Below are positions 2,465 through 33,300 of a stretch of 64,000 nucleotides of DNA, in pieces (the stretch's first letter is position 1; each line of letters opens with the position of its first letter). Source of the stretch: Mytilus edulis. Taxonomy: Eukaryota. The stretch covers positions 48,484,001-48,548,000 of the forward strand of contig NC_092346.1 of NCBI RefSeq assembly GCF_963676685.1. The letters are read 5' to 3'. The position numbers were made by a program, and so were the translations under genes. The notes beneath the pieces are model-generated. The model had not been told where the DNA came from, ran no database searches, and saw nothing but the letters and a program-made list of their open reading frames with translations.

Positions 2465-2520
2465 TACAATAAAATGTTTTTATTTAATAACATAATTCCA
2501 TATACAATATAGAGGTATTC
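2465..2520 (-). other. Gene A terminal non-coding exon with polyadenylation signal
   Basis: TTGTAG acceptor at 2521-2526; sequence conserved with 30306-30351 of gene B; AATAAA at 2479-2484 (minus). 3' end approximate. Confidence 0.7.
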
Positions 2521-2895
2521 CTACAATAAAAAGAAAAAGAATATCAGTATGCAAATAAATTTCTGTACAAACATTCAATAACATTGCAGAGAAAACAGTT
2601 CATATATGACTTTTAAAGCAACTACAGCTTCTTACAGTGATAAAGATACTAGTACTTGAGACATATCATACCGGCAAAATGTATAGTAAACAAAACGACT
2701 TGTGTAGGATGGAATTAGGTGTGGTCTTATGTTCGTTTTTATGGTCACTTCCAAATGGGTAAAAATGTTGGTATTTTTTTTCTCGCTAATTATCGTTTAT
2801 GCCACAAGGAAGTGTGTTTAACATTGTTATTTAGAATAATAGATAAATTGTATTTGGTATTGTGTTAAATAATAATAAAATGATCATGTCTTACA

Positions 2896-2948
2896 TTAGT
2901 ACACTTTTTCTTTGACCGCTGGTTCGTATCCATCCTCTTCATCATATC
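2896..2948 (-). CDS. Gene A exon 20 (acidic C-terminal tail, stop)
   Basis: GYDEEDGYEPAVKEKVY*, followed 1 nt later by a GTAAGA donor. Confidence 0.82.
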
Positions 2949-5900
2949 CTAATTGTTAAAAAAAATGTCAATTATAGCAATAACTGATTACGTACAATTT
3001 TTTGTTTCTTATGTTTATGCAATATACAAATTTTGCAATGCATGCGTAAAGATTATAAGTTTTATAAAGAAGTTTCAATAAGAATTTTTCATAACTTTAC
3101 AGTGCATGCTGTTGAAATCTAGTTAGGGACAACAGCAAATGCATGTAATCAGGCTCCTTAAAAAATATAAACAGTCAATAACACAAGAAAAGCCCGTTAA
3201 ACATATTTCCATTCAAATATACATGAAACCGAGTTATATATTCCAAGAAAAACAACCTTACAGTTCACGTGGGGTGTATGTTGACCAAACCTTCTATAAA
3301 TTCTGTAAATGGTATATGTATAAACATAAAAAATATGTGTTTTACCGTCGGTATATAGATCAAACAGGCGCCTTTTCTTTAGTTTTCCAAAGCATACGCT
3401 TCTACTATGATAATGTGAATAGCAATGACTCCAATACCTCCAGAATCGTTTATCACCACATGCCAGTTGGTATGCTACAAATAAATTACATGATACATAT
3501 TGTTAACCACAACTTAATATTAACGATTTTCGCAGTAACATAATAACGCGAATATAAATTGTAGGTAATATGGTAAACATTAATCTTCCCTAATGTAACA
3601 CATCTAGAATTTTTATTTTAAAATTTTTACAATGCTTGTTGTTTAGTTTATTTTTGACAAGTGCAGCTATATCTAACCAGGTATAAAAAAAATAACCCAT
3701 GCATGCGTCTATTTTTGTAGTAAAGTATATATCTTTTCTATTTGAGATTAAGTTTATATGGATACGACTTTCATAAGTATCTTATATTCAGTGTTAATTT
3801 GAGATATTAAAAAGACTGTCAGTTCGAGGAAAACACGAGATGGGATGTATATGATTAATATATAATTTACTTTTTACAATGAAGTATTATTTTAAAACAG
3901 TTTGAAAAGGCACGTAATATAAATGATGAATTGCATATTTCGTATCTAGTAATAATTCGCCAATTTGCATATTTCGTTTCTAGTAATAATTCGCTGATTT
4001 GCATTAAAAGTTAGACAGGTTTAATATGATGAGCGACATTTATTTTCTAAATGAGAAATTATATTGGAAGTAAAGACACGACCCTGTGACGTGCAGAGAA
4101 TGTAAATACTTTTTATTTGAAATATTAACATTGTTATAGCATTTGTAGGCATGTTGAAGTAACAATTATTGTGGACGTTAATATTTTTTGGTCAATTCAA
4201 TTGTTTTGATCAGTTGTTCTTACCTTTGCCACCATATGAAAATCTGTGCTGTCTGATTTTAAATCCATGATATTTCTTGTAGTAATCTATGTAACGTACA
4301 TGCCTGTGACTGTGTCTATGACGATAAGCATAACTATGTTTCTTGAGATTATACTCGTGTTTCTTATGGAGATGTCTCACGTTCAACTCATGCTTCTTGT
4401 TTTGATACTGACGTGTATTCAAATGCCTCTTATGTTGATGTTCAACAGTTGACAAATGATGTTTTGTGTGTTTGTGGAGTCGTTTAACATGATAATCTAC
4501 GAGTTGTTTAAATCTATTTATATGACTTCTAGCCTCGTTTGCAATTCTGCTGACGTGTTTGTTAGCCTGGTGTTGAATGTGGCGAACATGTTTATTTGAT
4601 ACATGAGATATTCTCGCTACATGACTCTTGGCTACTCTATGGATTCTTCTTGTATGGTGATGAGCAATTTGTCTGTGCCGGTACAGGTGCTTTCTCAGAG
4701 CATGATGGTCTGTAAAACGATAAATAAAATATATGTACTGATAGTAATGATTATTGTGGGTAAATTTACGATATTTCAATTATGTTTTAAGATATCAGAA
4801 TTAATAGAATAACGAAAAATAATAACCCGATTAAAAATTGATTTCGTGATGAAATAATCGTCAATGTCAAATACCTTAATTGCTTGTGATGATAGTTATC
4901 AATGCATATTGATATGTAAAATGGTAGTAAAATCGTAGATTTCCGCACTCTTAAATTTATTTTAAAAAGTAAAAAAAATTTAGAAATTCAAAATATAAAA
5001 AAAGGATAAGAATCATATGTAATGTGTCTTCGATAAAGTCTTTAAGCAATGCAGAATTAAACGTATTTAGTTTCAATTTACGTTTGAACATTTATCTCCA
5101 ATGAATCTATAAAAGAGAAGATAATTTTTCATAAAATGTATATTTTGAACTGAAATTATGAATAAAAAAAGTATAAAAAATCAAACAAAAATAATAGTAT
5201 AAGCAACAAATACGAATATATCTCCTGTCATATAAAGTTTAAAGTACATACGTCTAACGTATCTATAGAAGAGATGATGTCTTCCTAGTCGTCTAAAACA
5301 GGTCCCTACACTATGATAACGATGATAACATTGTCCCCAGTGTCTATAGAATCGGCTTCTGCTACATTTCAGTTTGTATGCTGCAATTAAAAAATGTCTT
5401 TTTTTCAAAACTGTCGAATGCTTGAAATGTCCTGAAGAGGATTGTCAAATAAGACAGCTCAATGAAAAAAAGTTAAAATATATGAAAAAACTACTAAAAA
5501 GTATACTACAAACATTCATTACGAGTTGTGTAAATAAATCACAATTTAAAAAGTATCGTGTATGAAATGTAAAATATGAATTATAAGTTATTAATATTCT
5601 TATGTTTTCATACTATTTGCAAATGGCTTTGTGTTCTTTGTTTACAAATAAACATACATTCTGGACAAATTGCGGATCACTGCTATGAATATAAACGACC
5701 AAAATGGTTACTGTGTTAATATTTCCGCCATTGACGTTATCCCTTTGAAAATATTTAAGTATTTTTAAATTCGCTCACCAATTCCGTTGTATGAAAATCT
5801 ATGATGTCTTATTCTGAATCCATGATGGCTATAGTAGTAACTACGGTCATATATAGGCCCGGAACTGTAACCAATTTCGGAATAATCTTCTACATAATGA

Positions 5901-8900
5901 TAAACATAATAGTTAAACTCAATGATGGAAAGGTTTTAAAGCATGTTTTCAATGTTTCGATGTAATCATTCACAATTAAATATTTAATGTATACCAGTTT
6001 TTTCATATTAACCAGCATCCAGTTTTAATTTCACGGAGAACATTTTGAACAAAATTTATCCTCAGAATAAATGTTTCGTTACGGTTTTTTTTTTCTTGGT
6101 TCATGTCGAAAAATACAGTAAGGTTAAAAAAACGTGGACAACTAACTGTTAAATATAATAGGACCAACATTTCATCGAATTTGTAAATGAAACAAGAATA
6201 ACAAAGAAAATACATGCTTAAGGTGGAACCTAACACTACAGGCATAAAATCTGTAAAATCAGATAAACGTTTTAATTACGTTGTGTTGTAAAGGGTATAT
6301 TAAGCTTCTCAATGATCAAAATTAGGCCGTGTTCACACCAAACTCCATGTACAGTAAACTTGTTTACAATTAGTGTAATGCACTGGACATTGGTTTCACA
6401 TTAAATTTGTTCACATCTATACACCTTGTTTAATTACCTGTGCATAAGATTTGTTCACACTTGTAAACTCTATGTCATTTAAATGTTCATTACGTAGAAT
6501 CGAATGAAAAGTTTTCGAACAACTTTTCTAGCAGTAAGGGAACGACCATTTGACTCTGAATAGGGGGAATGGAAATATTCCGATCCCCAATTGGATAAAG
6601 AAAACAATTGTGGTTCTACAGATGATAAAAAATATTGTGAATCAAGAGTTTCCCCATACATGATAGAGTTAAATGTAACAGTTTGAAGAAAAAAAATTTG
6701 ATTACCAGCATCGAAAAAAAAACCCGGAATAAAACGTTTGCACGGAAATAATTCTGACTCAGATAAATAAACAAAATACCCCCCCCCCCCTCTTTTTTTT
6801 AAAGTTATGTGGTTGCTTCTTTATGAAAGCCATTTTGATGATTTGCAGTAGTTTAAAGATACTAAAGATGTCTCGATTCAACATTAGAAAACGTAGGCTG
6901 GAACAGCGTGCTTACAGACGAAGAGGGAGGATTGATATATTAGGGATCACTATATTTCTATCTTTTCTGTTTGTTCAAATGGTACTCTTCTCCAAGAAGT
7001 ATTTGGCAAAAGGGTGGGGGGTAATTTTTTTTTTAACTTTAACTAAGTGTAATTTCAAGGATCCGAGATACTACACATACAATACATTTACCTCACACTT
7101 TTTAAGTAATCCATTTATGAGTGAACCGCTGTTTGAGTAAAGACCAGTGGCAAATATTTCTGTGTAAGTCAAATTTATTCGGAAAGACCTTAATTTTCAA
7201 ATGAATTATGTGTTCGGCAATGATGCTGCTTTGAGTCTTGATAAGGGCTTTATAAAGCTACGTTAAGTTTTATTTCTAAACAAAACAATTAAATATATCA
7301 AGTTTAGACAAATATTTATGTAAGTAACTTTATAATAATTGCTATAAATATCCATTGTATTTAAAAATCGTTTCTTCTTTAAATATGCACGATGAAACTA
7401 ATGTTTTGAATGCCTATTTTTATGTACACTTAATCTACACAAGGCCTACATCGAGTATCGATTGCATGTAGACAAAACATGAATTACACTACATGTAAAC
7501 ATTGAGTTTGATCAATGGGAACTTAATTTTGTTTAGTTTACGTGTGAGTTACACTTACACAACACCGAGTTTAGGTCAATGGGAACACGGCCTTAGTGTA
7601 ATTTTTCTGATAAAATAGTAGGTTCAAATTTTATGAAATTTTTATATTTTTGTCATAGGGTGAAAGTGAATACATTGTAAAAATTTTATGAAAATTCAAC
7701 GAGCCAAATTAATCTTAGTGAAGGTGTTTGGTACCACCTTAAGGCCGTGCGCTGAAGTAAAGTCATTTTGTCTCTTGCGGAGAGTTGTCTCATTGACAAT
7801 TATACCACAGTTTTTTTATATATATATTTAAACTGTCATTTAATAGTATACCTCCGCCGTATCTATAGAATAGATGTTGTCGATGTAGCCGTCCAAAGCA
7901 GCTTCCTACACTGTGGTATCGGTGATAACATTGACCCCATAGTCTGTAAAATCGGCTTCTTCCACATTTCAGTTTATATCCTGAAGTTTTAGAGATTTTC
8001 ATTTCCAGATGTTTATACTAAAATACTACTGAATTTCTCAAACGAGTAAGTTATATGAATTAAGATGAAATATGAAGATCATTTTCAATTTTTTACTATT
8101 ATTTCTAGCATTGCATTTAAATGGAAATTGTATAGGAATGTACGATTTACCCTCTAATATACTTTACACATAAAAAAAAGAATTTCCTAATATTTTAAGA
8201 TTCGCTTACCAATTCCGCCATACGTGAATTGATTATTTCTAATGGTAAATCCATGATGGCTCTTGTAATAAGCAAAGTCATATGTAATTCCGCTGCTATA
8301 ACCAGCTCCGTACGCACTGTGAGTTACACTTGAGTAACCTGCTAATTATATAAAACCAGAAAATTCAAAATTGATATTAAAAAGAGCTGACAAAAAAAAT
8401 CACATGTTACTAATCGTTTGATAAACATATTGATTCTGAAAAGAGTGACGAAAGACACCAAAGGGACAGTTAAACTCATAAATCGAAAATAAACTGACAA
8501 CGCCATCGCTAAAAATGAAAAAGACAAATAGACAAACAATAGTACACATGACACAACATAGAACAATTTAAGAATAATCAACACGAACCCCACCAAAAAC
8601 TAGGAGTGATCTCAGGTGATCCGGAAGGGTAAGCAGATCCTGCGCCACATGTGGCACCCGTCGTGTTGCTTATGTGATAAAAAATCTGGTAAAAAGTCTA
8701 ATTCGGTAGGTCAAATTCATGAAAGGGAAGGGGATTGTAGTTACGACGTAAGGAACATATCCGATATCATTTGTGAAACGGTTATTCCATAACGGTCAAC
8801 CAACTCGTGATGAGGTCCCTAAAATTAACGATGGGACGATTTCAACTTCACCATTTGGAACTCTTGGTTTAATAGCTTTCTCTAACTTTCATATAAAATA

Positions 8901-11900
8901 ATAAAACAAAATACAAATAAATACTTTGTGCATGCATTAAATTTCTGTCTTTTTACCACTTTTAAAACAAATTATCTATTTAGCAATCACGACTAAAAAA
9001 ATATTTTTCCCTCGAATTTAAAAAAAACATCAGTACCTTTATTCTTATTTAAACAGATATCACTCAAATCACTATTTTGAAACCAATGATGTAAAAATAT
9101 TTGGCAGCAAAATGAAATTAATATACTCTAAAGAATAGCCTAATGTTCACCTAAGGGCATTTATGTTTTAAACCAAAACAAAATACTTCAGTTTTAAACT
9201 TTAATTTGTATGTGGTATACATGATATATTTAATATGATTACCATTGTAATATGAAAACAGATGTTTTCTTCTTAGGTATCCAAAACATCTACCAACACT
9301 ATGGTATCGACCATAACATCTGTTCCAATAACTGTAGAAACGTCTCTTACTGCAACTCAGTTTGTAATCTATGTGAAATAAAGACACGAAAAGTAAGAAC
9401 ATACCAATGGGCAACAAAAATTTTAAGCACAACTAATATAGAAGAAAAATCTAAATTACAATTTACAAAAACGCCGCAGGGAAATATGTTTCTATCTGCC
9501 AATCATCTAAGCCAGTTGGAATGAGAATGTTTTAAATGCCTGGCAATCGCCTGTCTTTATGATGAGTTCTAGCCATACATTATTGGAGAATGGACAAATT
9601 TTCAATCATTTTTAGAATCTTTTTAAGAGAAAATCAAGCTTTCCATGGACGAAATCACGAAGACATTGCTATCAATGGCCGTATAATTGTGACATGTACC
9701 TACTACTACATATATAGATTGAACATTTAAAAATTACTCAACTTTTCACAAACTTCTTTATTTCGGCGAAAAGTGATAGATGTATAAAAAAACTTCGAAC
9801 ACTTTTTTCTCAATCTTTTCAATAAAATAAAATACACATTTATATTCATATATAAATGAGTTATAAACTGTATATATATATATACATGTATATATTATAT
9901 CTATACTATTAAACGAGAAGACCTCATTTTGGGTGTCGCTTCTCTTCCTTCCACAATAAATCAATCATCATGCCTCTGTGTCCTATAGGTAACATGCATA
10001 GTCGCATTTGTCATCCATTCTTATGATTATTCAGATTGAGTTATTTTGGGAGAAAAACGACAAAAAAGGAGTCCGGATATGATTCCGTCATCAGACTGAC
10101 TTTTAGTCATAGATAAGACTTCCGGTTTGAAACATGCACAAACACAACCAATCGTATGATAGATAACAAAAAATCAAAAATAAATAAGCCTATCAAATCG
10201 TTCTCCATGTCATGGTGTTTAGATCGCAAGAACCACAACTATTATACCTCCTTATAAAGGACAATTATTTTTCGCGTTTATCTACATGTAAACTACGATT
10301 ATACTACTTTAATATAGAGACTCTCTGTATTCTGTCTACTGTTTTTCCTTCAATTGTTTACTATTTAAGGGGTCATACCAGTTGCATATATATTAAAATA
10401 AGTAAAACATGTGACACATTTAAAAAAAACAATCGTATGATAGATAACAAAAATGAAAAATAAATAAGCCATTCAGAGCGTTCTCCATATCATGGTGTTT
10501 AGATAGCAAAAATAACAACTATTATACCTCCTTAGAGAGGACAATTATTTTTTGCGTTTCATTTCATGGTGTAAAGATCGCAAGAACCACAACTATTATA
10601 CCTCCTTAAAGAGGACAACTATTGTTCGCGTTTATCTACATGTAAACTACGATTATACTACTTTAATATATAGAGACTCTCTGTATTCTGTCAGGGACTT
10701 TCTATGTTAGTATAGAAAGTCCCTGATTCTGTCTACTGTTTTCTTTGAAATGTTTACTATTTAAGGGGTCATACCACTTACATATATATTAAAATAAGTG
10801 AAACATGCTTAACTTCATCTTAAACTACCTCGACCAAAAACTTTAACCTGAAGCCGGACTGACGGACGACCGACCGAACGAACGCACGGATGCACAGACT
10901 AGATGGGGCATAACAATTTATTGTTGAAAGTGAAAATAGTGATTTGGCAAAAATGAAAGTAAGCCGTAGAGATTAGAGGAGGCAGGGCCTTTTTCGGGCG
11001 TCGGGATCGGGTGTTTTGAAACTCGAGATTTGGGGATTGATCCTTACGGGATCCGGGAATATATTTTTCGATTTCGGGATTTCGGAATATGAATTTCTTT
11101 AAATTCTGCATCTCGGGATTTCGGGATCAGGACCCCTCCGACCACCCCTCAAATTAGCCTTAGTCGGTCTTAGTCATTTATACAAGATTCATATCCTACC
11201 ATTGGCATGTTAGTAAGACTCAAAAGAAAAAAAGCACTGATGGATTGTCCTTGAAGCATATTTTATTAGACTTATAATGGACTATATATAAGCAATTACA
11301 TTTATTTGATGTTTGAAATATAAGCAGTTACATTTATTTGATGTTTGAAACAGTGCAAATTTTTAATTTGATTTGACTTTTACCAAAAAAAGCATTGTAG
11401 CAAAAGAGACGAATAATTGTGGTCTGAGGCCAGAAACACGAAAATAATTGAATTTAACAGAAAGGAAACAAATATCGGACTTTGGAAAAAGGGAGAGGGC
11501 TTTTGATACCTTTTATGAAATTCTTCATACATAATATCTTTTTAAAAAATAATTCTACAATAGTTCACAAGCTGTATGTGCCCGCGATTTCGCGGGTGTG
11601 TTCTAGTATTTATTTATAATGTAACATTATTATTAACTTTTTGTTTTTATTTTATTATTTTTAAGTGATGAAGCGAATGGACACAACTTATCGTCAAAAT
11701 CAGTTCCAAATATATAATTTCATACGGTTATACAGTTTATCTTGTTTGTTGCTCTGTGTGTAAGAAATAGTTAATTCTTGCTTGTTTTTCATATGTATAG
11801 ATATATAAATGACTTACATTTTCCTCCGTATCTGAATCTCCCGTGGGAAATCTTAAATCTTCGGAAACGTGTGTACCCGGCAAGGTGCATGTGACCATGA

Positions 11901-14900
11901 TATGAATGAGGTGATCCAATCAGATGTCTTTTCCTCAATACTGACACACAGGTGCTTGCATGATGGAACTTATTGTAGCAGGAAGTCATATAACGAATGA
12001 ACTTTGATCGTCGGCACCCAAATTTGTAATCTAAAAAAAAGTTTAGTTTATTCTAGAATAAGGGGATTTAATATGATTTTAAATGAGCCACCCATTCAAA
12101 CAGAGACTATAGGAATATACTGTGAATATCTATATGTTACCGTACGACCTTCTACAATTATCCAAAAACATACCGTTTGGTAATTAAAAATAGAGAAACA
12201 GCAATTCTGTGCATGCTCAAATATGTGTATCATTGAAAAGAGAACTGGTTTGAATACAAATAAGTTTTGAAGACAAATCGGCATAATTGGGATTAAATTT
12301 TGTACACAATTTGTTTATATTGACAAACAGCTGCTCTGTGGGCAATGCATTTTTATTTTAAATATTGGAACCGATTTAATGTAATATGAATGGATGCATT
12401 GTATTATTTAAAAATGAACGAATTTAGTGTTGAACTTTGGTTAACTACTAGAAATATATGTACAAGACATACAAAGAGATAAAGCATTGTCGAATTTCTT
12501 TTTCTTGTTAGCTCATTCGATTATAATTAGTCAATTTTAAACAAAAATGGCACTTACATGATCTTCCGTAAACAATGCCTCTCTTTACAAAAGTTACACC
12601 TAAGCCAAATCCATGACCATATTTATGGTAAACGTGTCGTCTACCAATCAAACCTTGTTTAATCAGACCAGGGAAACAATCGCCTATATCTCCATAATCT
12701 TCATAACAGGAATTTAGTGCACCGTACAGTTTTGTTGAACTGCAAAGACGTCCATAGTCTGACATAAAAAAAAACTTATTATTATAAATACATGCATTTA
12801 CACATTCAATGCAGCTCAGATCTAAAAAGAAAATGATAAAGAAAAAAACCGATTCAACCTGGAAAATATACAATCATTATAACCATTACTTTTAGAAAGT
12901 TGTCTTTCTTGTTCATAATTATTACTTTTCATTCAGTATTTGACACTGAAACATATTAGTTCTACAGTAATTTTGGGAACATTTTGAATAAAAATATGTT
13001 ACTTGCACCTGAAATGAACAGGTTTTTTTTACTGCCTGTGGATTTTGTAAGATTTAACTAGAAATGTAAATACGAAATTGCCTCATTAGATTTCTAAGTA
13101 ATATAATCCCGAAAAAAAAATAGTTCTGCAACAAAAGTCTAGTGCAGTGTATAGTTGACTTACAGAATCCATTATATCTGATTCCACGGCCGATAAGTTC
13201 AACGCCAAGTCTGTGGAAACGATTGAATATGCGTCCTACATGAAATCTGTAGGCATGTCCTGAAAGTCAAAGACAATAGCGAAATATTATAAGATCTACC
13301 TTAACTGTAGGAAATTGTGACATCAAAATATAGTGTGACCTTTGATATTATGATTTGGTAATGAAAAGAGACACGAAGCAAACTTAAATGTGAAAGACAC
13401 AAGTCGACAGAAATAAGCATAATATATTTGCAGATTCTATTAAATTTTATATATGTATTATTTGTTTTATCTTCAGTATTGCCAAATAAATTTGAGTTTG
13501 CCTTTCATAAATATCTGATTTAAATGGAGTTATGTGCTTTGTTTGCTGAATTAATATCAATTTAACACAGCAAAAGTCAAAAGTTACAAATTACTGATTC
13601 AATTGAGTCAAAAAATGACTGATAAAAACATATTTGGTACATTTGATCTTACCTTTGCCACCATGTGAAAATCTGTGATGAATGAGGCTGTGACCATGAC
13701 CATAACGATAACCATGTTTCTTAAGATAATATTCGTGTTTCTTATGGAGATGTCTCACGTTTAATTCATGCTTGTTGTTCTGATACTGGCGTTCATTCAA
13801 ATGCTTCTTATGTTGATGTTCAACAGATGACAAATGATATTTTGTGTGTTTGTGGAGTCGTCTAAGATGGTAATCTACGAGTTGTTTAAATCTATTCATA
13901 TGACTTCTAGCCACGCTTGCAATTCTGCTTACGTGTTTGTTTGCCTGGTGTTGAATGTTGTGAATATGTTTGTTTGATACATGAGATATTCTCGCGACAT
14001 GACTCTTAGCTACATTATGGATTCTTCTTGCATGGTTGTTAGCAATTCTTCTGTGATGGTACAAGTGTTTGTTCAGAATAGCATGAGTGGCTGTAAAATG
14101 ATAGAAGCATATATTGTACTATTGCTATATATGTCATATCGAGCTCGTTTTATGTAGTATGCAATATAAAAATGTTCAAGATTTTTTTTTTTTATGCAAA
14201 GCATTCAATTGAGAAAATAAAAATAAAAACAACCATGTTAACAGCAATTTATAGTATTCAATACAAATTGATAGAACCATTAAATTTCTATAATAATCGA
14301 TAGCATCAATGATATGGCTGTAATTTTATTTGTTGCGAAGTACATTGTGAAATGGAACAAATGAATAAAAAAAAGGTGAAGAATAAATTAAAAAAATAAA
14401 ATAGTATTTTATAAACTTTTCTCGTTAACACCATCAACAGTTCCTTTCTCAATTTCATTTTGTAAGGAAGTGAAATAGATACACTGTCATATAAATTTAG
14501 AAAAATGTACCTCCAACGTATCTGTAGAAGAGATGAAGACTTCTTAGTCGATCAAAACAGATCCCCACACTATGATAACGATGATAACATTGACCCCAAT
14601 GTCTATAGAATCGGCTTCTGCTACATTTCAGTCTGTATGCTGTAATTAAAATCTATCTTGTTTCTAGGGTGTTGAATTATAAAAAAGCAAGATTGAGTCT
14701 TAATTAACTAAAAGAACTGCATACGATGAATCCTCGGTTATTAATCATGATAGAAATATTGGATATAAAAATATTCATAAATGGGAGCAATTAAAAAAAA
14801 AGCAATGGCAAGTATTATGATAAAAATTAATATATGAAATGTTAGCAACTTCTATTATGATGTTATCCATATTCATATTTTAGCCACTGTCTTTATTATC

Positions 14901-17900
14901 TTTATTTGCAAATACACAAATGAGAAGCAGTTAATTGCTATAACTTTATACAATCATATTGGGGTTTTCAATTTAACTTAATGTATTTTACGAGTCGGGC
15001 ATCAATATGTTTCCTTTATATGGACATTTATGATGTCTTATTCTAAATGCATAATGGTTACTGGAATTACTATAGTTAAAGGTAGACTCAATACTCCGTG
15101 TACATTACTGTCATTGGGTATAATCTTCTTATCAAATAATATATGCTTTCTCAGACGAGTCTTTATGATTTAATCCACAGTACTGAAGTATGTTGTTTTG
15201 TTCGATCATATTAACATGAACATTACCATTTAAAATTGAGAATGGAAATGGGGAATGTGTCAAAGAGACAACAACCCGACCAAATAAAAAAAACAACAGC
15301 AGAGGGTCACCAACCGGTCTTCAATGTAGCGAGAAATTCCCGCACCCGGAGGCGTCCTTCAGCTGGCCCCTAAACAAATATATACTAGTCCAGTGATAAT
15401 GAACGCCATACTTATTTCCAAATGTACACAAGAAACTAAAATTAAAATAATACAAGACTAACAAAGGCCAGAGGCTCCTGACTTGGGACAGGCGCAAAAA
15501 TGCGGCGGGGTTAAACATGTTTGTTTTACTATTCTTTCAAAATCATTGCATTAAAATTGTATAGGAACGTAAAATGTTAAATGTCAGCTGTTCATTGTTA
15601 TGCATTTATGCATTAAACCACCAGTGTGTTTACCATTTTGTCCCTTATTTTACCTTACTTCAATATAGATCTACTAATGTTTCTAGATTTACTTACCAAT
15701 TCCACCATATGTGAATCTATTATGGTGTATACTAAATCCGTGATGACTTTTGTAATAACCATAGTCATATACAATTCCACCATGTCCACTCCTGTAACCA
15801 GCTCCGTACCCACCACTTGAGTAACCTGCTATTTATATTAAAATGGAAAATTAAAAACAGATAGTGAAAAAGATGGGGAGAATCATTCAACATTTAAATA
15901 TTCACTTGATAAGTAAACTGATTTAGACAGCCACAAAAAGTAATCGAAACAACAAAACGAAATGTCAATGCATATTAATTTGAAAACAATGTTTTTTGCC
16001 ACAAATAAGATTAATTCACGCCTTTACAATGTGAATTTTCTACCAATTTTAAAATAAATGTACTAAAATTCACTACTGAAAAGTCATTGATGTATACATG
16101 ATTAGGAACCTAAAATTCTATGGACCACTTACTAGTAATAAAAACAAAAACAGTTCCTTGCATTTATAACTTTGAATTTGTAAGTGTTACATGTGCCTGT
16201 CCCAAGTCAAGAGCCTGTAATTTAGTGATCGTCGTTTGTTTATGTGTTACATATTTGTTTTTCTTTATTGTTTTGTACATAAATAAGGCCGTTAGTTTTT
16301 TCGTTTGAATTGTTTGACATTGTCATTTCTGGGCCTTTTATAGCTGACTATGCGGTATGGGCTTTGTTCATATTTAAAGGCCGTCCGGTGACCTGTAGTT
16401 GTTAATTTCTTTGTCATTTTGGTCTCATGTGGAGAGTTGTCTCATTGGCAATCATACCACATCTTCTTTTTTTTAAATGTACATGTAATTACCATTATAA
16501 TATGAAAACAGATGCTTCCTTCTAAGGTATCCAAAACATCTACCAACACTGTGGTATCGACCATAACATCTGTTCCAATAACTGTAGAAACGTCTCTTAC
16601 TGCAACTCAGTTTGTAATCTATATGAAATAAAGACACAAGAGGCTAGAAGATATCTATAGAACAAAAGAAATATTTAACAGAATAAAAAAAGTGTTTTGA
16701 AAGACTACCGATCGTCCACCCCTTATGATAAGTTATAACCTCATACTGCTTAGAGAATAGACAATTTGTCAATCAATTTTACAAAGTCATCAAGAACTCT
16801 TTCAAGATTTTAAGAGCAAAAAAAAAGTTCCCTATTGCTGAAAACACGGAGATATCCTATTCAATATATGTATGATTGAAGCATATATACATAACTACAA
16901 AATAACGTTGAGCATTTATTTTGTACTCAACTGTTCACCCGTTTATAGTGTTTCGGTACTTTTCTTATTTTTTGTTTTGTATGTGGTCAATTGTTTATTT
17001 TCGTTTGTTTTTGTGTAAAATATACATAACTTACATTTTCCTCCGTATCTGAATCTTCCATGGGAAATCTTAAATCTTCGGAAACGTGTGTACCCGGAAA
17101 GGTGCATGTGACCATGATATGAATGAGGTGATCGAATTAGATGTCGTTTTCTCAAAACTGACACACAGGTGCTTGCATGATGGAACTTATTGTAGCAAGA
17201 AGTCATATAACGGATGAACTTTGACCGACGGCACCCATATTTGTAATCTGAAAAATAATTTTATCAAAAATAATCAGATGTGTAAGATTGGCAATGAGGA
17301 AACAATCAGTCTGATCCTAAAAAATGAGCCTGTTAAAAACGATGGGCCACCATACTGCATTAAATGATCATAAACCATCATACCGTTCGGTGAATAAAGA
17401 AAACAGGTTCGTCAATGTGTTAATGCTTGAAACGGTTCAACGTACGCAAAATGTATACTTAAGATAGCTAAAACTATTTTCAAGTGTTTCAAATTTGCAG
17501 CTGAGAGATTACCCAGTCAAACTGAATTTACGTCAAATAACGAAAAACATGTATAAAATCTACATTTTTTACATTCTAATCCATATAACATATTGTCATT
17601 TTTATATGGTTGGAGACAATCTCATCAGTTTTAAAGATTGAAACAGTTGTAATTAAATGCGATAGGGTAAATTGCATTTCCCTTGTTCCGCAATACTTAT
17701 TGAATAATTACTTATCATTTCTAATCACTCATATAACGTGGGGACACTAATTTTTAATTTAAATCAATGTATCTAAATGTTGGTAAACTAATAAAATATA
17801 TGTTCAAGACGTAACGTCAGACGATGTGTTCTCGTTTACTCATTCGAGGAATATTTTTCAATTACAAAACAATAAATATGTACTTACATGATCTTCCATA

Positions 17901-20900
17901 AACAATGCCTCTTCTCACAAAGGTGACACCTAAACCGAATCCATGACCATATTTATGGTAAACGTGGCGTCTTCCAATCAACCCTTGTTTAATCAGACCA
18001 GGGAAACAATCCCCTATGTCACCATAATCTTCATAACAGGAATTTAGTGCACCGTACAGTTTTGTTGCACTGCAAAGACGTCCATAGTCTGCAACAAAAG
18101 ACAAATGAATATAACATGAAGGGTAGCTTAGACTTAATCTTAATCTATAAAGACAATAAAAAGAGACACAAATTTACGGTCATACTATGATAACAATCAC
18201 TCAACGGAAGAACTGTTTTTTGTTCATTAATTTCATTTTTATTTTTCAATCAATATTTGACACTATAAAATGTAGAATCGAAATGGGAAATGTGTCAAAG
18301 AGACAACGATCAGATGAAAGTGTAAAAAACTGCCCAAGGCAAAACAGTGAATAAAAATTCCCGCAGTCAGAGGCGGGCTTAACTGGACCCTAAACACAAA
18401 TGTGTACTAGGTCAATGAAAAAGACGTTACTCAAAACACCGAAACATATTAATGACAAAATTTAAAAAAAAACAAAAAAACCCAGACATACATGACTAAC
18501 AAAGGCGAAAGGCTCCAGACTTGGAACACGCATAATTGTTCCTTGGAATTTTTGCAGCAAAATGTATGATCTTTTACCTTTTTATTTATTAGTCCTTTTT
18601 CGGTATTTCTTACCTTTAATTATAAAACTTAAAGTTTCATACAAAATGTACCACACCTAAAATTCATTGACATTATAACAGTCCCGTAAAAGTTTCTTTC
18701 TTAAAGTCGAACGTAGTGTACAATATTACTTACAGAATCCGTTATATCTGATTCCACGTCCGATAAGTTTAACACCAAGATTGTGGAAACGTTTGAATAT
18801 ACGCCCTACTTTAAATTTGTAGGCATGTCCTAAAAGTACAAGACAATAGCAAAAATATAATAAAATATATGTTCAATTCAGGGCAATAAAATGCACATAA
18901 GAACGAGCTTAAGTGCTTCCAAAGCAGGACGAAAACCCAAGCTTAGCTAACCTTTTTTCTGTAATATGCACAAATAAAAAAAATAAACATATTGCTTTGA
19001 CAACGACTGTGAAGTCGACATCAATGTGAACTGTGTCGTTAATAACTGTTTGGACACGGAGTCGGAATTCCAATTATACCAATAAAGTTTGTTCATGATA
19101 TAATCAGTATCCAAAGAGATGATATTTGTTTAGATCACGGCGTTGGCGTTACTTTACAGCTGTATTTGAACATTATATATAATGCATTACAGTTATCAAT
19201 TTGGTAATGTTTATGATTTTTTCATCACGTATTCCCAAGTTTTGATAAACCTTAGAACTGAAAGTAGAATCTGCCAAATCCGTGTATTTTTAGCATTGTT
19301 ATTAAAGGGAATTGTTTTTTCTAAAATGGTAATTGTTCCCTCTTTTTATGATGAACTTAAAATAAAAATCGGTATGAATCAGACTTTAATGAGACATACA
19401 CCAGACGACAAAATAGAAATGGAAATAATCACTTTTATTTAGATTCAAATACCTATTTCTTTTTTTGTCAACTGATTACATTTGTTCATATCAATTTTCA
19501 AAGATGTCAGAGCTTTCATGTATTAATTCTAATCGGACTCTCAAAGATCACAAGAAATGCCTGTCATTGATAAAAAGAACATGTTTTCATTTCGTTAAAT
19601 CTTTGATATAAACACACTCCCGAACAACACAAGCATGCCTTTAAGATGAAGATAAGCAATAAAAATGCAGTCTTTTTGGTTATTGTGTGGGATTTGCTCT
19701 GTTTGTACTGATTTTGTGTTATGAATGAATACCTCATACTCTTTGTTTTTCTATTATGAAAGTAAAATATGAAAGTTAGAACAGCACAAAAACACTGATG
19801 ATGGCCAACGATTAACTCATGCGCATCGATACTGTCTTTTTTTCGAACCAGATATTCGTTAATAATAAAACAAAAACACGATTGGTAATAAAGTTATTAC
19901 CTGATAAAGTAAGGGAAGTTGACAAAAATAAGTACACAAAGCCAAATAACACGAGTACAGAACTAAGGGCATCACTTAGTAAAATGACGAATTTCCTTTA
20001 CATACTAGGTTAAATACATACAATCAGTACTTGGTGTAGAATGAGTATATAGCATATCATCTTCTGAGATTATTTCAATTATTCTCTCACTTAATATAAT
20101 AATTTGGAGATGCAGTATGACTGAGACAATGAGACATTTATCCATCACATATTCAAAATGTTCACATGACGTGCATGTATTCAATCAACTCAATATCAGA
20201 CGGACACAAAAAAAATATAACGCTCAAATAGTCATACCAGTAATAAGTTTGTGCCCAGCATAACCGGCATGGTGACCATGAGAAACATAGCTTGAGCTTG
20301 AGTATGAACTTGATTTAACTACTTTAGGTTTGTAGCTATAGTCTTCTTTATTACCGGAATAATAGTCTTTACTGCCATACCCATTCGTAGCTGAAATTTG
20401 ATAAAAAAAAAAAAAAAAAAAAAACAATTATGAAACAGAAATAAAAATTTGTAAATATAGCAACTTTCAGATTTCCCCCCGATCTTTTAATGTCCATCAC
20501 AGATACATGTAATGTGCATATTATTTAAAATATTAGATAAAACTATAAAACTGTAAAAAAGACTTGCCACTGGAAAGTATTTTACATCTTATTCCAGTTT
20601 TCTAGTAACCTTTTTTTTATATATAAAAAATGCTTTTTTGTCACACAATGAATTACATTTAATTTGATTGAAATACGAAAATAATATGTGCTATCGTTGA
20701 CGATGATATCCCTCAACAGTTCATTTCACGCACATTTAAACTGAACTTATTCATAAAATTGTTTCTCAACTAAAAATTACTGTATATCAATTAAAAAAAA
20801 TATCTATTTCTATATCTTAATGCCGATGTTATTTATTAGTCCAAAATAGTTTCTATTGGGTTTTCTGCTAGTTTATGTGTTTCCCTCGATTTTGGTGTGT

Positions 20901-21460
20901 GACTTTTTTTTGTTTTGGCTTTATCGCTTTATGATTTTTGAACAACAGTCAAATAATATTTCCTTAATTACAAGATCTTATACAAAAAACGAAAAAAAAA
21001 AAAAATATGTATAACTCTTAAGGTACTGAATGGCTCTATAGAAAAAAAGATTGATATTTTTTTTTCTATTATATAAAAAGCTTTAACCTCAATTTTGGTT
21101 AGATGGAGACATTCCAGAAAAAAAATTCTGTACATTGTACACACGAGTCGCACATGAGATGACTTTAAATTAATTTATATATAGTTAAGTTTCTGGGACA
21201 TTTCAAAACTCAAAAGTCTGCAATCTATCGAGTTCTGAAAGTTGTTTAATCTTTTGTTTTTACTTTTTTTGTAAATATTTTTAGTTTTAGTACTTGGAAC
21301 ACACAAATAAAAAAAACTAACTGTCTGAAGGCAGTTAAGGTTTGAATTTAAGCTGACCAATAGAGAAAAAAAATCAAACTAATTATTAAATTAAAACTTA
21401 TCGAGAATACTTACATGCAGCAATCGCTGCAATGAGTAGGACTAGTATCCCACAAGCCAT
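2896..21460 (-). CDS. mfp-12: Gene A: secreted His/Tyr/Cys-rich modular protein, mussel foot protein-12-like, with internally duplicated body (20 coding exons, ~1110 aa)
   Basis: GT-AG exons read by eye: 21415-21460, 20238-20390, 18734-18829, 17888-18088, 17035-17247, 16493-16618, 15697-15825, 14511-14639, 13653-14090, 13164-13259, 12558-12758, 11818-12030, 9243-9368, 8210-8338, 7852-7980, 5779-5889, 5252-5380, 4224-4709, 3346-3474, 2896-2948. All introns phase 1; sum 3333 nt, open frame from signal peptide MACGILVLLIAAIAASTNG to TAA. The symbol rests on recalled architecture (His-rich helix plus Cys/His modules), not on a search. Confidence 0.8.
3346..3474 (-). CDS. Gene A exon 19 (Cys module)
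   Basis: AYQLACGDKRFWRYWSHCYSHYHSRSVCFGKLKKRRLFDLYTD. Confidence 0.88.
4224..4709 (-). CDS. Gene A exon 18 (His-rich 11-residue-repeat helix, copy 2)
   Basis: HHHALRKHLYRHRQIAHHHTRRIHRVAKSH...YHGFKIRQHRFSYGGK; 486 nt; inside track ORF 4210..4779. Confidence 0.9.
5252..5380 (-). CDS. Gene A exon 17 (Cys/His module)
   Basis: AYKLKCSRSRFYRHWGQCYHRYHSVGTCFRRLGRHHLFYRYVR. Confidence 0.88.
5779..5889 (-). CDS. Gene A exon 16 (Gly/Tyr/His module)
   Basis: EDYSEIGYSSGPIYDRSYYYSHHGFRIRHHRFSYNGI. Confidence 0.85.
6325..7592. mobile_element. PIF/Harbinger-like MITE nested in the TTAA element
   Basis: TTA-GGCCGTGTTC ... GAACACGGCC-TTA: 10-bp perfect TIR, 3-bp TTA TSD. Confidence 0.72.
6535..6823. mobile_element. 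Possible third nested MITE
   Basis: Imperfect TIRs TAAGGGAACGACCATTTGACT / AGTTATGTGGTTGCTTCTTTA with subterminal G and C runs. Confidence 0.4.
7852..7980 (-). CDS. Gene A exon 15 (Cys/His module)
   Basis: GYKLKCGRSRFYRLWGQCYHRYHSVGSCFGRLHRQHLFYRYGG. Confidence 0.88.
8210..8338 (-). CDS. Gene A exon 14 (Gly/Tyr/His module)
   Basis: GYSSVTHSAYGAGYSSGITYDFAYYKSHHGFTIRNNQFTYGGI. Confidence 0.85.
8437..8878 (-). mobile_element. Family P2 3' fragment
   Basis: Reverse complement matches 27746-27968 and continues into the 3' UTR shared with 22351-22628. Confidence 0.75.
9243..9368 (-). CDS. Gene A exon 13 (duplicate of exon 6)
   Basis: YYKLSCSKRRFYSYWNRCYGRYHSVGRCFGYLRRKHLFSYYN. Confidence 0.88.
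10150..10805. repeat. Internal tandem duplication inside the Helitron
   Basis: CAATCGTATGATAGATAACAAAAA at ~10149 and ~10430, each followed by ~250 bp of similar sequence; a sub-repeat is triplicated. Confidence 0.75.
10692..10725. mobile_element. 34-bp TIR-only mini-insertion with 7-bp target duplication
   Basis: ATTCTGT-CAGGGACTTTCTAT-gttagt-ATAGAAAGTCCCTG-ATTCTGT; empty site in the paralogous segment near 10329-10340. Confidence 0.75.
11818..12030 (-). CDS. Gene A exon 12 (duplicate of exon 5)
   Basis: YYKFGCRRSKFIRYMTSCYNKFHHASTC...; 213 nt. Confidence 0.88.
12558..12758 (-). CDS. Gene A exon 11 (duplicate of exon 4)
   Basis: YYGRLCSSTKLYGALNSCYEDYGDIGDCFPG...; 201 nt. Confidence 0.88.
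13164..13259 (-). CDS. Gene A exon 10 (duplicate of exon 3)
   Basis: GHAYRFHVGRIFNRFHRLGVELIGRGIRYNGF. Confidence 0.85.
13653..14090 (-). CDS. Gene A exon 9 (His-rich 11-residue-repeat helix, copy 1)
   Basis: ATHAILNKHLYHHRRIANNHARRIHNVAKSHVARISHVSNKH...HHRFSHGGK; 438 nt; overlaps track ORF 13591..14064. Confidence 0.9.
14511..14639 (-). CDS. Gene A exon 8 (Cys/His module)
   Basis: AYRLKCSRSRFYRHWGQCYHRYHSVGICFDRLRSLHLFYRYVG. Confidence 0.88.
15010..15128 (-). pseudogene. Decayed pseudo-exon homologous to exons 5779-5889 and 34583-34714
   Basis: Reads EDYTQ*Q*CTRSIESTFNYSNSSNHYAFRIRHHKCPYKGN: two in-frame stops and no GT donor at the homologous position. Confidence 0.65.
15231..15523 (-). 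mobile_element. Family P1 3' fragment
   Basis: AAAATTGAGAATGGAAATGGGG...GGCGGGGTTAAACATG, similar to 62756-63043. Confidence 0.78.
15697..15825 (-). CDS. Gene A exon 7 (Gly/Tyr/His module)
   Basis: GYSSGGYGAGYRSGHGGIVYDYGYYKSHHGFSIHHNRFTYGGI. Confidence 0.85.
16190..16474 (+). repeat. Interspersed repeat 3' end (SINE/LINE-like), unclassified
   Basis: GGCCTTTTATAGCTGACTATGCGGTATGGGCTTTG...GTTGTCTCATTGGCAATCATACCACATCTTCTTTTT recurs at ~45490-45662 and inverted at ~31975-32120. Confidence 0.65.
16493..16618 (-). CDS. Gene A exon 6 (Cys/His module)
   Basis: YYKLSCSKRRFYSYWNRCYGRYHSVGRCFGYLRRKHLFSYYN. Confidence 0.88.
17035..17247 (-). CDS. Gene A exon 5 (Cys module + His tail)
   Basis: YYKYGCRRSKFIRYMTSCYNKFHHASTCVSVL...HGRFRYGGK; 213 nt. 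Confidence 0.88.
17888..18088 (-). CDS. Gene A exon 4 (Cys module + Gly/His tail)
   Basis: YYGRLCSATKLYGALNSCYEDYGDIGDCFPGLIKQGLIG...GIVYGRS; 201 nt. Confidence 0.88.
18272..18535 (-). mobile_element. Family P1 3' fragment, degraded
   Basis: Diverged match to 15231-15500. Confidence 0.6.
18734..18829 (-). CDS. Gene A exon 3
   Basis: GHAYKFKVGRIFKRFHNLGVKLIGRGIRYNGF; 96 nt as in three paralogous exons. Confidence 0.85.
20238..20390 (-). CDS. Gene A exon 2 (Ser/Tyr/Gly/Lys-rich N-terminus)
   Basis: STNGYGSKDYYSGNKEDYSYKPKVVKSSSYSSSSYVSHGHHAGYAGHKLIT; CAG acceptor, GTATGA donor. Confidence 0.85.
21415..21460 (-). CDS. Gene A exon 1 (signal peptide)
   Basis: MACGILVLLIAAIAA, then T|GTAAGT donor. 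Confidence 0.85.
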
Positions 21461-21660
21461 TTTGACGGATGATGTTTTATCAGCCAAAGAACCTTCTTAT
21501 ATACTAGATTCAAAACCATATGTTGCATCTAAAATGTTTAAGTACAATAAACATATTTGTATTTTTTTCTTGTTGTATGTTAACATGTAGTATAAAGTCT
21601 GATCCGGTGTTGTATTTCCTCCTCAGAAACTTTATCAAAGTATGTTTCCAATTCATTAAG
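21461..21660 (-). promoter_or_regulatory. Gene A proximal promoter (TATA box 21497-21503, E-box 21517-21522, conserved upstream block)
   Basis: TATATAA about 40 nt upstream of ATG; ~200 bp aligns with 43563-43760. Confidence 0.7.
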
Positions 21661-30351: not shown

Positions 30352-33300
30352 CTACAAAAGAAAGAAAATATATAAGTCAAAATAAGTCTAAAAAGATTTT
30401 TGGTACATACACTCTAATTCAGTTATATTGCAAAGACACAACTTCATAATATCTAACTTCGGAGGCATACAATTCTTCTAGCACCGATTACGATGTTAAT
30501 TCTGAACACACCATTCGTACTATTCAAAACTGTTCTTGTGTATGTTTTATGATAAAAAATTATTCTAATTCGCATCAAAGCTACAAAACAAAAATCAGAT
30601 GACTAATTCTTATAACTTGCTACCCAATCCATTTAAGGAATGATTGTAATATTTTTTCTGTCTATGAAGAAATAACATAAAAAATTTAGTGCACACTGAA
30701 TAACGCACGTAGCGGGTTATTTAACAGTGTGCACCACATTTTTTCTGTTATTTTGAATAGACAGAAAAAATATTACAGTCATTTTTTATAATTTAATTCT
30801 AAATTCCATTTTAAACCGTAGAAAACCATGAAAAAACGTTGATGACGTCACGGTCACATGACTAAATTATGTCTATGGGCTCATAACAAAATAACGTCAG
30901 CCAATTAGAAGACGCGTTACATCCAAAATTAAATTATTATAAAGGAATATGAGTAAACTAACTAATAACATTCATGTAACATCACAATAGTAAATATAAA
31001 AGAAACTAGGTTTGCTACTTTGCGTGTGCAGGATGGCGTTGCATTGTATCACGTTTTCAAAACAAATACTTCATTATTGAGGCATATTGGTCCAAATGTG
31101 TTCATCGTTAATAAGCAAATATACCTTTTCCTATTTTCTTAAAGATACATTATAAATATATCCATTTTTCTATTAACGTTTGGTTTAGAACTTATCTTAT
31201 GAGTATATCGTTTCTGATTGATTGTTCAAAATAAAGAGGGATGTATTCCTTGAGGTTAACCCCTCCCCCTCCAAAAATAATAATAATAAAAATCGGCTTG
31301 ATACGACATATCATTTATCATTTGTTTAACATTTTGTTCATTATGACCGGAATAAAAATATTACATACGTTATATAATTCTTCCGTCTTGTTCAAAAGGA
31401 TTTCAAAAAGTGTTTTAGAGGAAAGAAATATTAAAATATTTGAGTTTCAAATTGTCTTTATAACCGGAGGAAAGTATGTTATCTCTTTTGATATCATTCA
31501 CCTACCTTATATAATAATTGAAAGATTCAAAAGGGCAATGATGGATATAAATGTGGGTCTCTTGTGTTTTGTACGGTGTAAAACACATAATTGAACATAA
31601 TCATGATATTTGATATCTTACAATAGTATGCTGATTTTCCTGCTGGTACATAATCATCCTCGTCATCATATCCTAATGGGAAAACGAAACAAGTTACAAT
31701 AGTGATTACAAGTAATGTACAAATATCAACTACACATTTCTGTTTTGACAAAGCCCGCACATCATTATTAGATGCAGTCTTTGAATTTGTTTTCTTTTTG
31801 TTCTTGTATTGTAAACCAGACAAGGTGTATGTAAAAATTAAGTTTATAAAACTAATTAATAAGAAATAAGTAAATTTCACATCAACTCACAAACGATTGC
31901 ATGACGCAAATACACAGTTTACAATAATACTTATACATGCACTCAAACTTTTCATTTCTGGCTCTATTGATATATAAAAAAGAAGATGTGGTAAGGTTGC
32001 CAATGAGACAACTCTCCAAAAGAGACAAAAATGACACAGAAACTAACAGCTATAGGTCAACGTATGGTCTTCAATAATGAGCAAAGCCCATACCGCATAA
32101 TCAGCTATAAAAGGCAACGAAATATGTTTGCTGGCGCTAAACCACTCCGACCCAAATGGGACATACACGAAACAGCACAATAAAAGAAGAAGCTATCAAA
32201 ATTAGTTGATAAAGAAAAGAAATTTAATTTTTAAAGCGATGCAACGACAAAAAAAACCCCCAAAACACAAGGTATGAATTTGAGAGTACTTGAAGCTGTT
32301 TAAAGCTATATAAAAGCCTAATTAATAACAAATGAACAAATCTATATATAATGCTAAATTGTTTAGGGTCCGGAAACAGCAGGTATATATTGCAGACATA
32401 TCAGCACTTGACCACTTCTTTATACATATTATAGTCAATTACACAAGAGAACTATATGTTGGTGCTTGTTTAATAGACTATATAAAGTGATTCTGTGAAT
32501 AGCATACATTGCATTAACCAAAATACGTGTATGATATGCTTATATAATGTGGTTTACCGTCGGTGTATACATCAAACAGGTGCCTTTTCCTTAGTTTTCC
32601 GAAGCAAACGCTTCTGCTATGATAATGTGAATAGCAATCACTCCAATAATTATAGAATCGTTTATCTCCACATGTCAGTTGGTATGCTTTAAAAACATAA
32701 ACAAAATATTATTATCAGTTTGAAAGTACGAAATGAGTTATTGATGAGTAACAAAGTTGATACTTATACAATATATGATTATAGGTCTAAGTATACAGTT
32801 GTTAGTTTTGTACACAGTTCTTCAATTCACTTCCTTAGTAATTATATTCGTTACATGTAATAATAATGATATTAATATATACACATGTTTCTTTTTTATT
32901 ATAGTATTGTTCTCTTCTACTCAAAATTAAGTGTACATGTGTAAGGCTTTCCATTATGTTTTTGTCTGTACGATATTGGTAATATAAAAGACAAATTAAA
33001 TGTATCTCACGTATGCGACACAGTTACACTTGATAAAACATGAACCTGTGATGCAATGAAACCGAACATACTTTTATTGAGAATATAAGTATTCATATTG
33101 TATTTGTGGGCATGCGTAAGTAAATATTTCATGAATTCTTATTAAAATATTCTGGTACATTTGATCTTACCTTTGCCACCATATGAAAATCTGTGATGAT
33201 CCAGTTTAAATCCATGATATTTCGTAAAGTAGTCATTATAACTTACTACAAGCCCATGAGCATAAGCGATTGCATGTTTCTTGAGATTATATTCGTGTTT

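What the first reader, a model, noticed from the sequence alone, without database searches (positions are those of the whole stretch)
4224..4709. His-rich exon has strict 11-residue periodicity with an invariant histidine stripe
Seen: HLYRHRQIAHH / HTRRIHRVAKS / HVARISHVSNK / HVRHIQHQANK / HVSRIANEARS / HINRFKQLVDY / HVKRLHKHTKH / HLSTVEHQHKR / HLNTRQYQNKK / HELNVRHLHKK / HEYNLKKH. His opens each of 11 consecutive units, with mostly hydrophobic residues at positions 2 and 5 and no Pro or Gly. The register is kept in the copies at 13653-14090 and 33171-33650. Known: 11 residues per 3 turns is the hendecad coiled-coil periodicity. Inference: an oligomeric coiled coil with His layers in or beside the core, acting as a pH- and Zn/Cu-triggered assembly switch. 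The exon ends in the ordinary YHGF..HRFSYGGK motif, so it looks like a Gly/Tyr/His exon that gained the coil.
Basis: partly seen in the sequence, partly recalled or inferred. Interest (0 to 1): 0.75.

Follow-up and report, generated by a model that had tools for sequence, protein, structure and literature searches.

The report
Histidine-striped coil of mussel glue protein
This spliced exon encodes an 11-residue repeat with a histidine opening every unit, inside a two-coil relative of the published mussel glue protein mfp-12, and it likely forms a zinc- and pH-triggered coiled coil that helps the glue set in seawater.

Summary
His opens 11 of 11 units in three minus-strand exons; 0 of 20,000 shuffles reach this. 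Hydrophobic residues alone peak at 3.67 residues per turn (11/3), not 3.5. The mechanism is largely published: PMC13022425 describes mefp-12, a His-rich plaque protein whose coil peptide phase-separates and cures with Zn (not Cu or Ni) as pH rises. The copy at 33171-33650 is mefp-12 itself (primers, mass, pI and His content match). The finding's exon is the second coil of the neighbouring 133 kDa paralog, which has two coils and ten Cys/His modules and is spliced in RNA-type contigs. Not found in that paper: the hendecad register, the invariant His stripe, the two-coil paralog, and a family of 13 coil exons in this genome. One exon lies behind a His-rich decapeptide exon that looks like mfp-4, so mfp-4 and mfp-12 likely share the coil. 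Oligomer state and Zn positions are inferred, not shown.

The parts
4224..4709 (-). The finding: second coil exon (18th of 20 coding exons) of gene B, the two-coil mfp-12 paralog; residues about 890-1051 of P0001
   Evidence: AG/GT ends; 100% identity to P0001; exon map; joint 5252>4709 in 4 of 4 laid runs and 4224>3474 in 1 of 4
4336..4689 (-). His-stripe hendecad core: 118 aa, 11 units, 22% His, no Pro/Gly, predicted about 18 nm rod
4225..4284 (-). Exon end motif; predicted first (beta) half of the last globular Cys/His module, continued in the next exon
   Evidence: AF2 model: strands at residues 1045-1048 and 1051-1055, then helices 1059-1073 and 1076-1085, local pLDDT 75-81
3344..3474 (-). 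Cys/His module exon after the coil
5253..5381 (-). Cys/His module exon before the coil
13653..14090 (-). First coil exon of gene B; 89% DNA identity to the finding's core; spliced onward into the duplicated second half
   Evidence: joint 13652>13258 in 3 of 4 laid runs
2896..21460 (-). Gene B: internally duplicated mfp-12 paralog, 1111 aa, 133 kDa, pI 10.3, 11.5% His, 20 coding exons, 10 Cys/His modules, 2 coils
21416..21460 (-). First coding exon of gene B, signal-peptide-like, same 15 residues as in gene A (judged by eye; no signal-peptide predictor run)
31623..43562 (-). Gene A = mefp-12 itself (P0005: 745 aa, 88.0 kDa, pI 9.87, 9.1% His; one coil)
   Evidence: 3 of 3 published RACE primers match with 0 mismatches at 43551-43574, 38228-38249 and 33527-33546; mass, pI and His equal the paper's 88 kDa, 9.9 and 9.1%
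33171..33650 (-). Coil exon of mefp-12; holds the stretch tested as peptide alpha-FP12 (29 of 30 residues identical, compared by eye)

Best explanation
The exon encodes an 11-residue repeat with an invariant histidine stripe, the second of two such segments in a paralog of the mussel plaque protein mfp-12, and it likely folds into a metal-stabilised, probably trimeric hendecad coiled coil once pH rises and zinc is present. Steps. (1) Shown: 11/3 register; conserved face of positions 8, 1, 5, 9, 2; expression as a spliced exon. (2) Published for the neighbour gene's peptide: random coil without Zn, Zn-dependent liquid phase near pH 6.5, helical porous solid at pH 8, dissolved by acid or EDTA. 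(3) Inferred: in the acidic vesicle the protonated stripe His and a net charge of about +22 keep chains apart; at seawater pH the stripe His of parallel chains form a ring every 11 residues (about 16.5 A apart) around Zn, with small Ala at position 9 leaving room. (4) Inferred: His pairs at i,i+3 and i,i+4 in the polar C-terminal half, and the less conserved outer His, bridge Zn within and between coils. (5) Inferred: a chain with two coils can join two bundles and so act as a branch point of the porous scaffold.
For: Stripe His in 128 of 138 aligned cells over 13 genome copies, with no indel in the block for 12 of 13 rows (the 13th is truncated); His on the stripe is more conserved than His off it (Mann-Whitney p=4e-5; copies are related, so this is descriptive). 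Hydrophobic peak 3.645-3.71 in 12 of 12 complete copies, 3.67 in 7 of them. Hydrophobic moment at 43 degrees with the stripe at 0 degrees, which fits a core of positions 9, 1, 2, 5. AF2: one helix, residues 2-133, pLDDT 93.5. The finding's copy keeps all 7 His of the tested 30-mer (23 of 30 identical by eye). PMC13022425 (sections read): plaque-gland in situ signal and MS/MS for mefp-12; AlphaFold3 predicts a likely homotrimer with His in the core; Raman and solid-state NMR show helix and His-Zn in the solid. Hendecads are slightly right-handed (PMC4786415 passage).
Against: No experiment concerns gene B or a full-length coil; the paper used a 30-mer and its authors could not express or purify mefp-12 (peer-review file passage). 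Zn positions in their model had under 50% confidence. The stripe lies about 40 degrees off the hydrophobic centre, so it flanks the core and may not point to the axis. In the whole-protein AF2 model (mean pLDDT 51) the first coil is broken and under 50. The tissue of the RNA runs is unknown, their RNA status is a tool guess, and no single contig spans both coils. No solved natural relative was found.
Confidence: 0.7

Rival explanations
1. Same coiled coil, but the stripe His act only as a buried pH gate (hydrogen-bonded layers), and Zn binds the off-stripe His to cross-link coils.
For: The Raman signature is an imidazolate bridging two Zn, hard to build from single layers 16.5 A apart. The basic mfp-12-type coils carry 8-14 off-stripe His per 110 residues, whereas the six complete near-neutral paralogs carry 3-6 yet keep the stripe.
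Against: The peptide showed no conformational change from pH 3 to 12.6 without Zn, so deprotonation alone did not fold the 30-mer. The paper's models place Zn in the core, at low confidence.
Confidence: 0.18
2. An apolipoprotein-like 11/3 amphipathic helix that coats an interface (vesicle membrane or condensate surface) or folds back on itself, not a multi-chain coil.
For: Weak Pfam PF01442 match over the coil in 6 of 6 proteins scanned, best E 1.1e-5. 11-mer amphipathic repeats are typical of lipid-binding helices (recalled).
Against: Best score 25.7 bits against a cut-off of 90. No Pro or Gly breaks for a fold-back bundle. A polar His lies inside the apolar face, and Gln/His/Asn fill that face in the C-terminal half. 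mefp-12 was found in the solid scaffold.
Confidence: 0.07
3. A disordered or beta-forming His-rich low-complexity region whose period is a by-product of DNA repeat expansion.
For: The 30-mer is random coil without Zn and only partly helical in condensates.
Against: No DNA tandem repeat; units are 17% identical outside the stripe; the register is kept at about 30% identity; the cured solid is helical.
Confidence: 0.03

Closest known systems
mefp-12 / mcfp-12, Mytilus plaque scaffold protein (PMC13022425)
   Same: Same signal-like N-terminus, same Cys/His globular modules, coil 81% identical over the 118-aa core; its gene is the direct neighbour in this window.
   Different: Gene B is internally duplicated: 133 kDa, two coils, ten modules, against 88 kDa, one coil, six or seven modules. 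The paper's main text has 0 hits for hendecad, heptad, '11 amino', periodic, right-handed and paralog, and its five supplements have 0 for hendecad, heptad, undecad, periodic and paralog. Its figures were not visible to me.
Hendecad (11/3) coiled coils (PMC4786415 passage; survey by Martinez-Goikoetxea and Lupas 2023 seen only as a reference entry)
   Same: 11 residues per 3 turns; apolar face with 3.67 periodicity.
   Different: One face position is almost invariantly His over 10-12 consecutive units, and folding appears to need metal and high pH. No solved natural homologue. Whether the 2023 survey lists this family could not be checked.
mfp-4, His-rich plaque-thread junction protein
   Same: A gene in this genome has an exon with 31 His-rich decapeptide matches, then a degenerate module exon, then a His-hendecad coil exon. 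A review describes mfp-4 as a His-rich decapeptide repeated more than 36 times (PMC5132118 passage).
   Different: That coil is near neutral and Asp/Asn-rich in its first units, about 30% identical to the finding's. That mfp-4 has an acidic 11-residue repeat is recalled from Zhao and Waite 2006, which was not held; the mfp-4 sequence itself was not compared.
Designed three-stranded coiled coils with His3-Zn layers and designed His-based pH switches (recalled, not looked up)
   Same: His layers inside a helical bundle that respond to metal or pH.
   Different: Those are heptad designs with one or a few sites; this is natural, hendecad, with about 11 layers, and cures a material.

Membership tests
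mfp-12 family | Central His-rich helical segment of about 129 aa and about 18% His | tested here: met
   118-aa core, 22% His; predicted single helix, pLDDT 93.5
mfp-12 family | Repeated Cys/His globular modules (two strands, two helices) flanking the coil | tested here: met
   10 modules in P0001 by a profile built here; strand-strand-helix-helix pattern in the AF2 model at moderate confidence
mfp-12 family | N-terminal signal sequence | tested here: met
   First 15 residues identical to those of gene A; no predictor run
mefp-12 itself (the characterised gene) | RACE primers, 88 kDa, pI 9.9, 9.1% His | tested here: not met
   Met by gene A, not by the finding's gene B (133 kDa; one primer matches with 1 mismatch, two do not match within 3 mismatches)
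mfp-12 family | Made in the plaque gland and present in plaque vesicles or scaffold | not tested
   Spliced contigs exist but the tissue is unknown; published only for mefp-12
mfp-12 family | Zn- and pH-dependent phase separation and curing | not testable with these tools
   Published for a 30-mer that is 23 of 30 identical to the finding's copy, with all 7 His kept
Hendecad coiled coil | Apolar periodicity of 11/3 rather than 7/2 | tested here: met
   Peak 3.645-3.71 in 12 of 12 complete copies; 7/2 power 0.7-23 against 93-223 at 11/3
Hendecad coiled coil | Multi-chain bundle with knobs-into-holes packing and straight to slightly right-handed supercoil | not testable with these tools
   No oligomer coordinates were available; the paper predicts a likely homotrimer for mefp-12
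Apolipoprotein A1/A4/E (PF01442) | Pfam gathering score of 90 bits | tested here: not met
   16-26 bits in 6 of 6 proteins
mfp-4 (for the distant gene at G000:C3:96.545-96.557 Mb, not the finding) | Tandem His-rich decapeptide domain | tested here: met
   405-codon frame, 36% His, 31 pattern matches; review says more than 36 repeats
mfp-4 (same gene) | Sequence identity to characterised mcfp-4 (ABC84184.1) and one transcript joining the exons | not tested
   Reference sequence and paper not held; exon order and phase-1 ends are compatible; a predicted M. galloprovincialis protein joins module and coil (P0042)

The most novel reading that the evidence does not exclude
The large His-rich plaque proteins of Mytilus (mfp-12, its two-coil paralog, the 14-18% His proteins that may include mfp-11, and mfp-4) are one exon-shuffled family built on a single ancestral module: a natural hendecad coiled coil with about 11 His-Zn layers. 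The 11-residue repeat of mfp-4, a protein described as mostly random coil at pH 3, would be the first units of that coil. Near-neutral and basic coils with the same register could co-assemble, tying thread-junction and plaque-scaffold proteins into one Zn-cured network with two-coil chains as branch points.
Probability: 0.5. Interest if true: 0.65.

Novelty: new variant of a known kind. Interest (0 to 1): 0.45.

Why it matters
The core idea is already in print for the neighbouring gene, which caps the score. The additions make that model testable residue by residue. The register sorts the seven His of the published peptide into stripe (H4, H15, H26), inner partners (H11, H23) and outer (H9, H21), each with a different predicted effect. 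It also predicts a straight or slightly right-handed bundle that heptad-based reasoning would miss. If mfp-4 carries the same coil, a long-known junction protein gains a fold and an assembly trigger. A natural, regularly spaced His-Zn coil is also a template for pH-cured wet adhesives.

Tried and rejected
Three-copy complex prediction of the coil: verdict 'no answer', score 0.00 in two runs, alignment not used, no Zn included; it counts neither for nor against. Foldseek against the PDB: 0 matches for the helix model and none at E<=0.001 for the low-confidence whole-protein model. PDB sequence search: 6 weak hits (E 0.006-0.9), five of them designed proteins. Profile search of 1.84 billion representatives gave 68 hits at E<=0.001; I read 20 of them and looked up sources for 16. 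Hits from hagfish, a sea slug, axolotl and several unnamed long proteins match only through generic 11-mer repeats and were rejected as relatives. Eight short unnamed fragments (P0048, P0053, P0055-P0058, P0060, P0062) look like true coil pieces, but their organism is unknown. Protein searches with the distant coils found no annotated close member. ESM Atlas: no usable hit for the decapeptide exon. Expression of the distant cluster stayed untested. No earlier scan findings. A heptad register and a DNA tandem-repeat origin were rejected. Papers not held: DeMartini 2017, Zhao and Waite 2006, Martinez-Goikoetxea and Lupas 2023, Hwang 2010 and one review. Rivard 2025 (Adv. Funct. Mater., the paper's reference 20) was not looked up by id; any of these could already note the register or the paralogs.

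Full report
Observation. The stretch 4709-4224 is a minus-strand exon with AG and GT ends in phase 1, as are the copies at 14090-13653 and 33650-33171. In each, a 118-residue core without Pro or Gly has His at the start of 11 of 11 units. Over all periods from 2 to 30, 0 of 20,000 shuffles per copy give a His run of 10 or more. The period does not rest on His alone: V/I/L/M/F peak at 3.67 residues per turn in the three copies, with 0 of 2,000 shuffles as strong and almost no power at 3.5. It is not a DNA repeat; the units share 39% DNA and 17% protein identity outside the His codon.

What the locus is. A search with the exon returned 21 proteins among 29 candidates, 20 named as Mytilus and one unnamed. 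PMC13022425 (Rivard et al. 2026; I read the abstract, introduction, results, discussion and the start of the methods, passages of the methods, the supplementary PDF text, and passages of the review file; no figures) describes mefp-12. Its three RACE primers match the window with 0 mismatches at 43551-43574, 38228-38249 and 33527-33546. The annotated product of that gene, P0005, is 88.0 kDa, pI 9.87 and 9.1% His, equal to the paper's values. The tested peptide matches the 33 kb copy at 29 of 30 residues and the finding's copy at 23 of 30 (by eye). So gene A (43562-31623) is mefp-12.

The finding's gene. The exon belongs to the next gene downstream, gene B (21460-2896), annotated only as uncharacterised (P0001, 1111 aa, 133 kDa). 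It has 20 coding exons, ten Cys/His modules and two coils: the block from the first modules to the coil is present twice. Four runs from four studies were laid on 2500-22000 (4 of the 19 holders listed). They show GT-AG joints into the finding's exon in 4 of 4 runs, out of it in 1 of 4, and from the first coil into the second half in 3 of 4. These are contigs of runs guessed to be RNA, of unknown tissue; none spans both coils, and the joint 11818 to 9368 is not among those listed (a joint to the identical exon copy at 16618 appears instead). A two-coil model also exists for M. galloprovincialis (P0029), and each coil pairs with its counterpart in a tree of 25 coils (99/96 and 94/98). Models from M. 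californianus and M. coruscus with the same ends have the duplicated modules but one coil (P0007, P0040, P0003); I did not check their genomes. A different paralog in M. trossulus has two near-identical coils of its own (P0002, 99/94).

Anatomy of the coil. Over 13 genome copies the stripe is His in 128 of 138 cells; position 2 is V/I/L/M/F in 80%, position 5 in 72%, and position 9 is Ala/Ser/Gly in 87% of cells in the first six units. On an 11/3 wheel positions 8, 1, 5, 9 and 2 form one face, centred at 43 degrees with the stripe at 0 degrees. A core of positions 9, 1, 2, 5 (a, d, e, h in the usual hendecad labels, recalled) has its mean at 49 degrees and fits best, so the His flanks the centre of the face. 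In the C-terminal half, positions 8 and 9 become Gln, His and Asn, and two conserved His lie three or four residues before a stripe His. AF2 gives one helix at pLDDT 93.5.

How it likely works. Published for the mefp-12 peptide: random coil from pH 3 to 12.6 without Zn; liquid droplets near pH 6.5 with at least 1 Zn per 3 His and 0.5 M salt, but not with Cu or Ni; a helical porous solid at pH 8 with imidazolate-bridged Zn, dissolved by acid or EDTA. Inferred here: protonated stripe His and 26 basic against 4 acidic residues block assembly in the acidic vesicle; at seawater pH parallel chains close His rings on Zn every 16.5 A along an 18 nm rod (geometry); His pairs and outer His bridge Zn within and between rods; a two-coil chain branches the network. 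Confidence 0.7. The main rival keeps the coil but gives the stripe a pure pH role (0.18). The apolipoprotein-like reading rests on Pfam scores of 16-26 bits against a cut-off of 90.

The wider family. The own genome has 13 coil matches, a lower bound: three in the window, one just beyond it, two elsewhere and seven in a cluster at C3:96.55-96.66 Mb. The seven are near neutral but keep the stripe. Their kinship is more than shared periodicity: with whole units shuffled and the stripe left out, L007 against the six mfp-12-type coils is reached by 0 of 20,000 shuffles, L016 against L007/L008 by 0 of 20,000, L016 against the six by 43 of 20,000, and L016 against the finding's coil alone by 299 of 20,000, the weakest result. 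Two of these genes also have a degenerate module exon before the coil (E 5.5e-11 and 2e-8). Upstream of L016 lies an exon with 31 His-rich decapeptide matches, which fits a review's description of mfp-4 (PMC5132118 passage); another review calls mfp-4 mostly random coil at pH 3 (PMC9999432 passage). That mfp-4 has an acidic 11-residue repeat is my recall; the source paper was not held, and neither its sequence nor a transcript of this gene was examined.

Novelty. The coil, Zn and pH mechanism is already known for the neighbour gene. The words hendecad, heptad, periodic and paralog do not occur in that paper's text or supplements. Searches of the held library found 0 papers with 'hendecad' and 'Mytilus', none among the 20 listed of 42 with all of hendecad, histidine, coiled coil and mussel, and one paper with 'mfp-12' and 'byssus'. 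Several subscription papers that could mention these points were not available. Verdict: a new variant of a known kind, interest 0.45; the family-wide reading that includes mfp-4 has probability about 0.5 and would deserve about 0.65.

Noticed in passing
G000:C3:96.545-96.657 Mb (L007, L008, L013-L020, L023-L031): Cluster of seven His-hendecad coil exons of near-neutral charge. Four are preceded by long His-rich repeat exons (decapeptide type, or a Lys/Arg/Tyr/Gly 12-residue repeat), three by shorter His/Tyr/Gly-rich exons; one gene looks like mfp-4. No annotated close member came up in two protein searches.
   Followed up: partly
window 52037-64000, + strand, continuing to about 72900 (L011, L006): A third family gene, divergent from mefp-12, with 16 module hits (10 inside the window) and a terminal coil exon just beyond the window end; partly matches the predicted protein P0041.
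   Followed up: partly
L010, 14-19 kb before the window start, minus strand: Four more Cys/His module exons; no coil exon was found in the 20 kb before the window, so this may be a coil-less family member (recalled candidate: mfp-10).
   Followed up: no
G000:C3:48.284-48.296 Mb (L021, L022, L004) and C2:11.217 Mb (L005): Two more one-coil family genes; the first has at least ten modules in near-identical tandem exons, the second belongs to the 14-18% His group that may include mfp-11.
   Followed up: partly
genes A and B, coding introns: The intron ends printed in the exon map are consistent with phase 1 throughout, which would let modules and coils be duplicated or skipped freely; module number in database proteins ranges from 0 to 16.
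   Followed up: partly
P0048, P0053, P0055-P0058, P0060, P0062: Short fragments from unnamed assemblies carry the family's coil signature at lower identity, suggesting relatives beyond the five Mytilus species; organisms unknown.
   Followed up: no
window 41157-42403: A 355-bp tandem repeat of 3.5 copies, 99% identical, inside an intron of mefp-12.
   Followed up: no
PMC13022425 methods: The printed peptide has 29 letters; the NMR table shows the missing residue (Ile5).
   Followed up: yes
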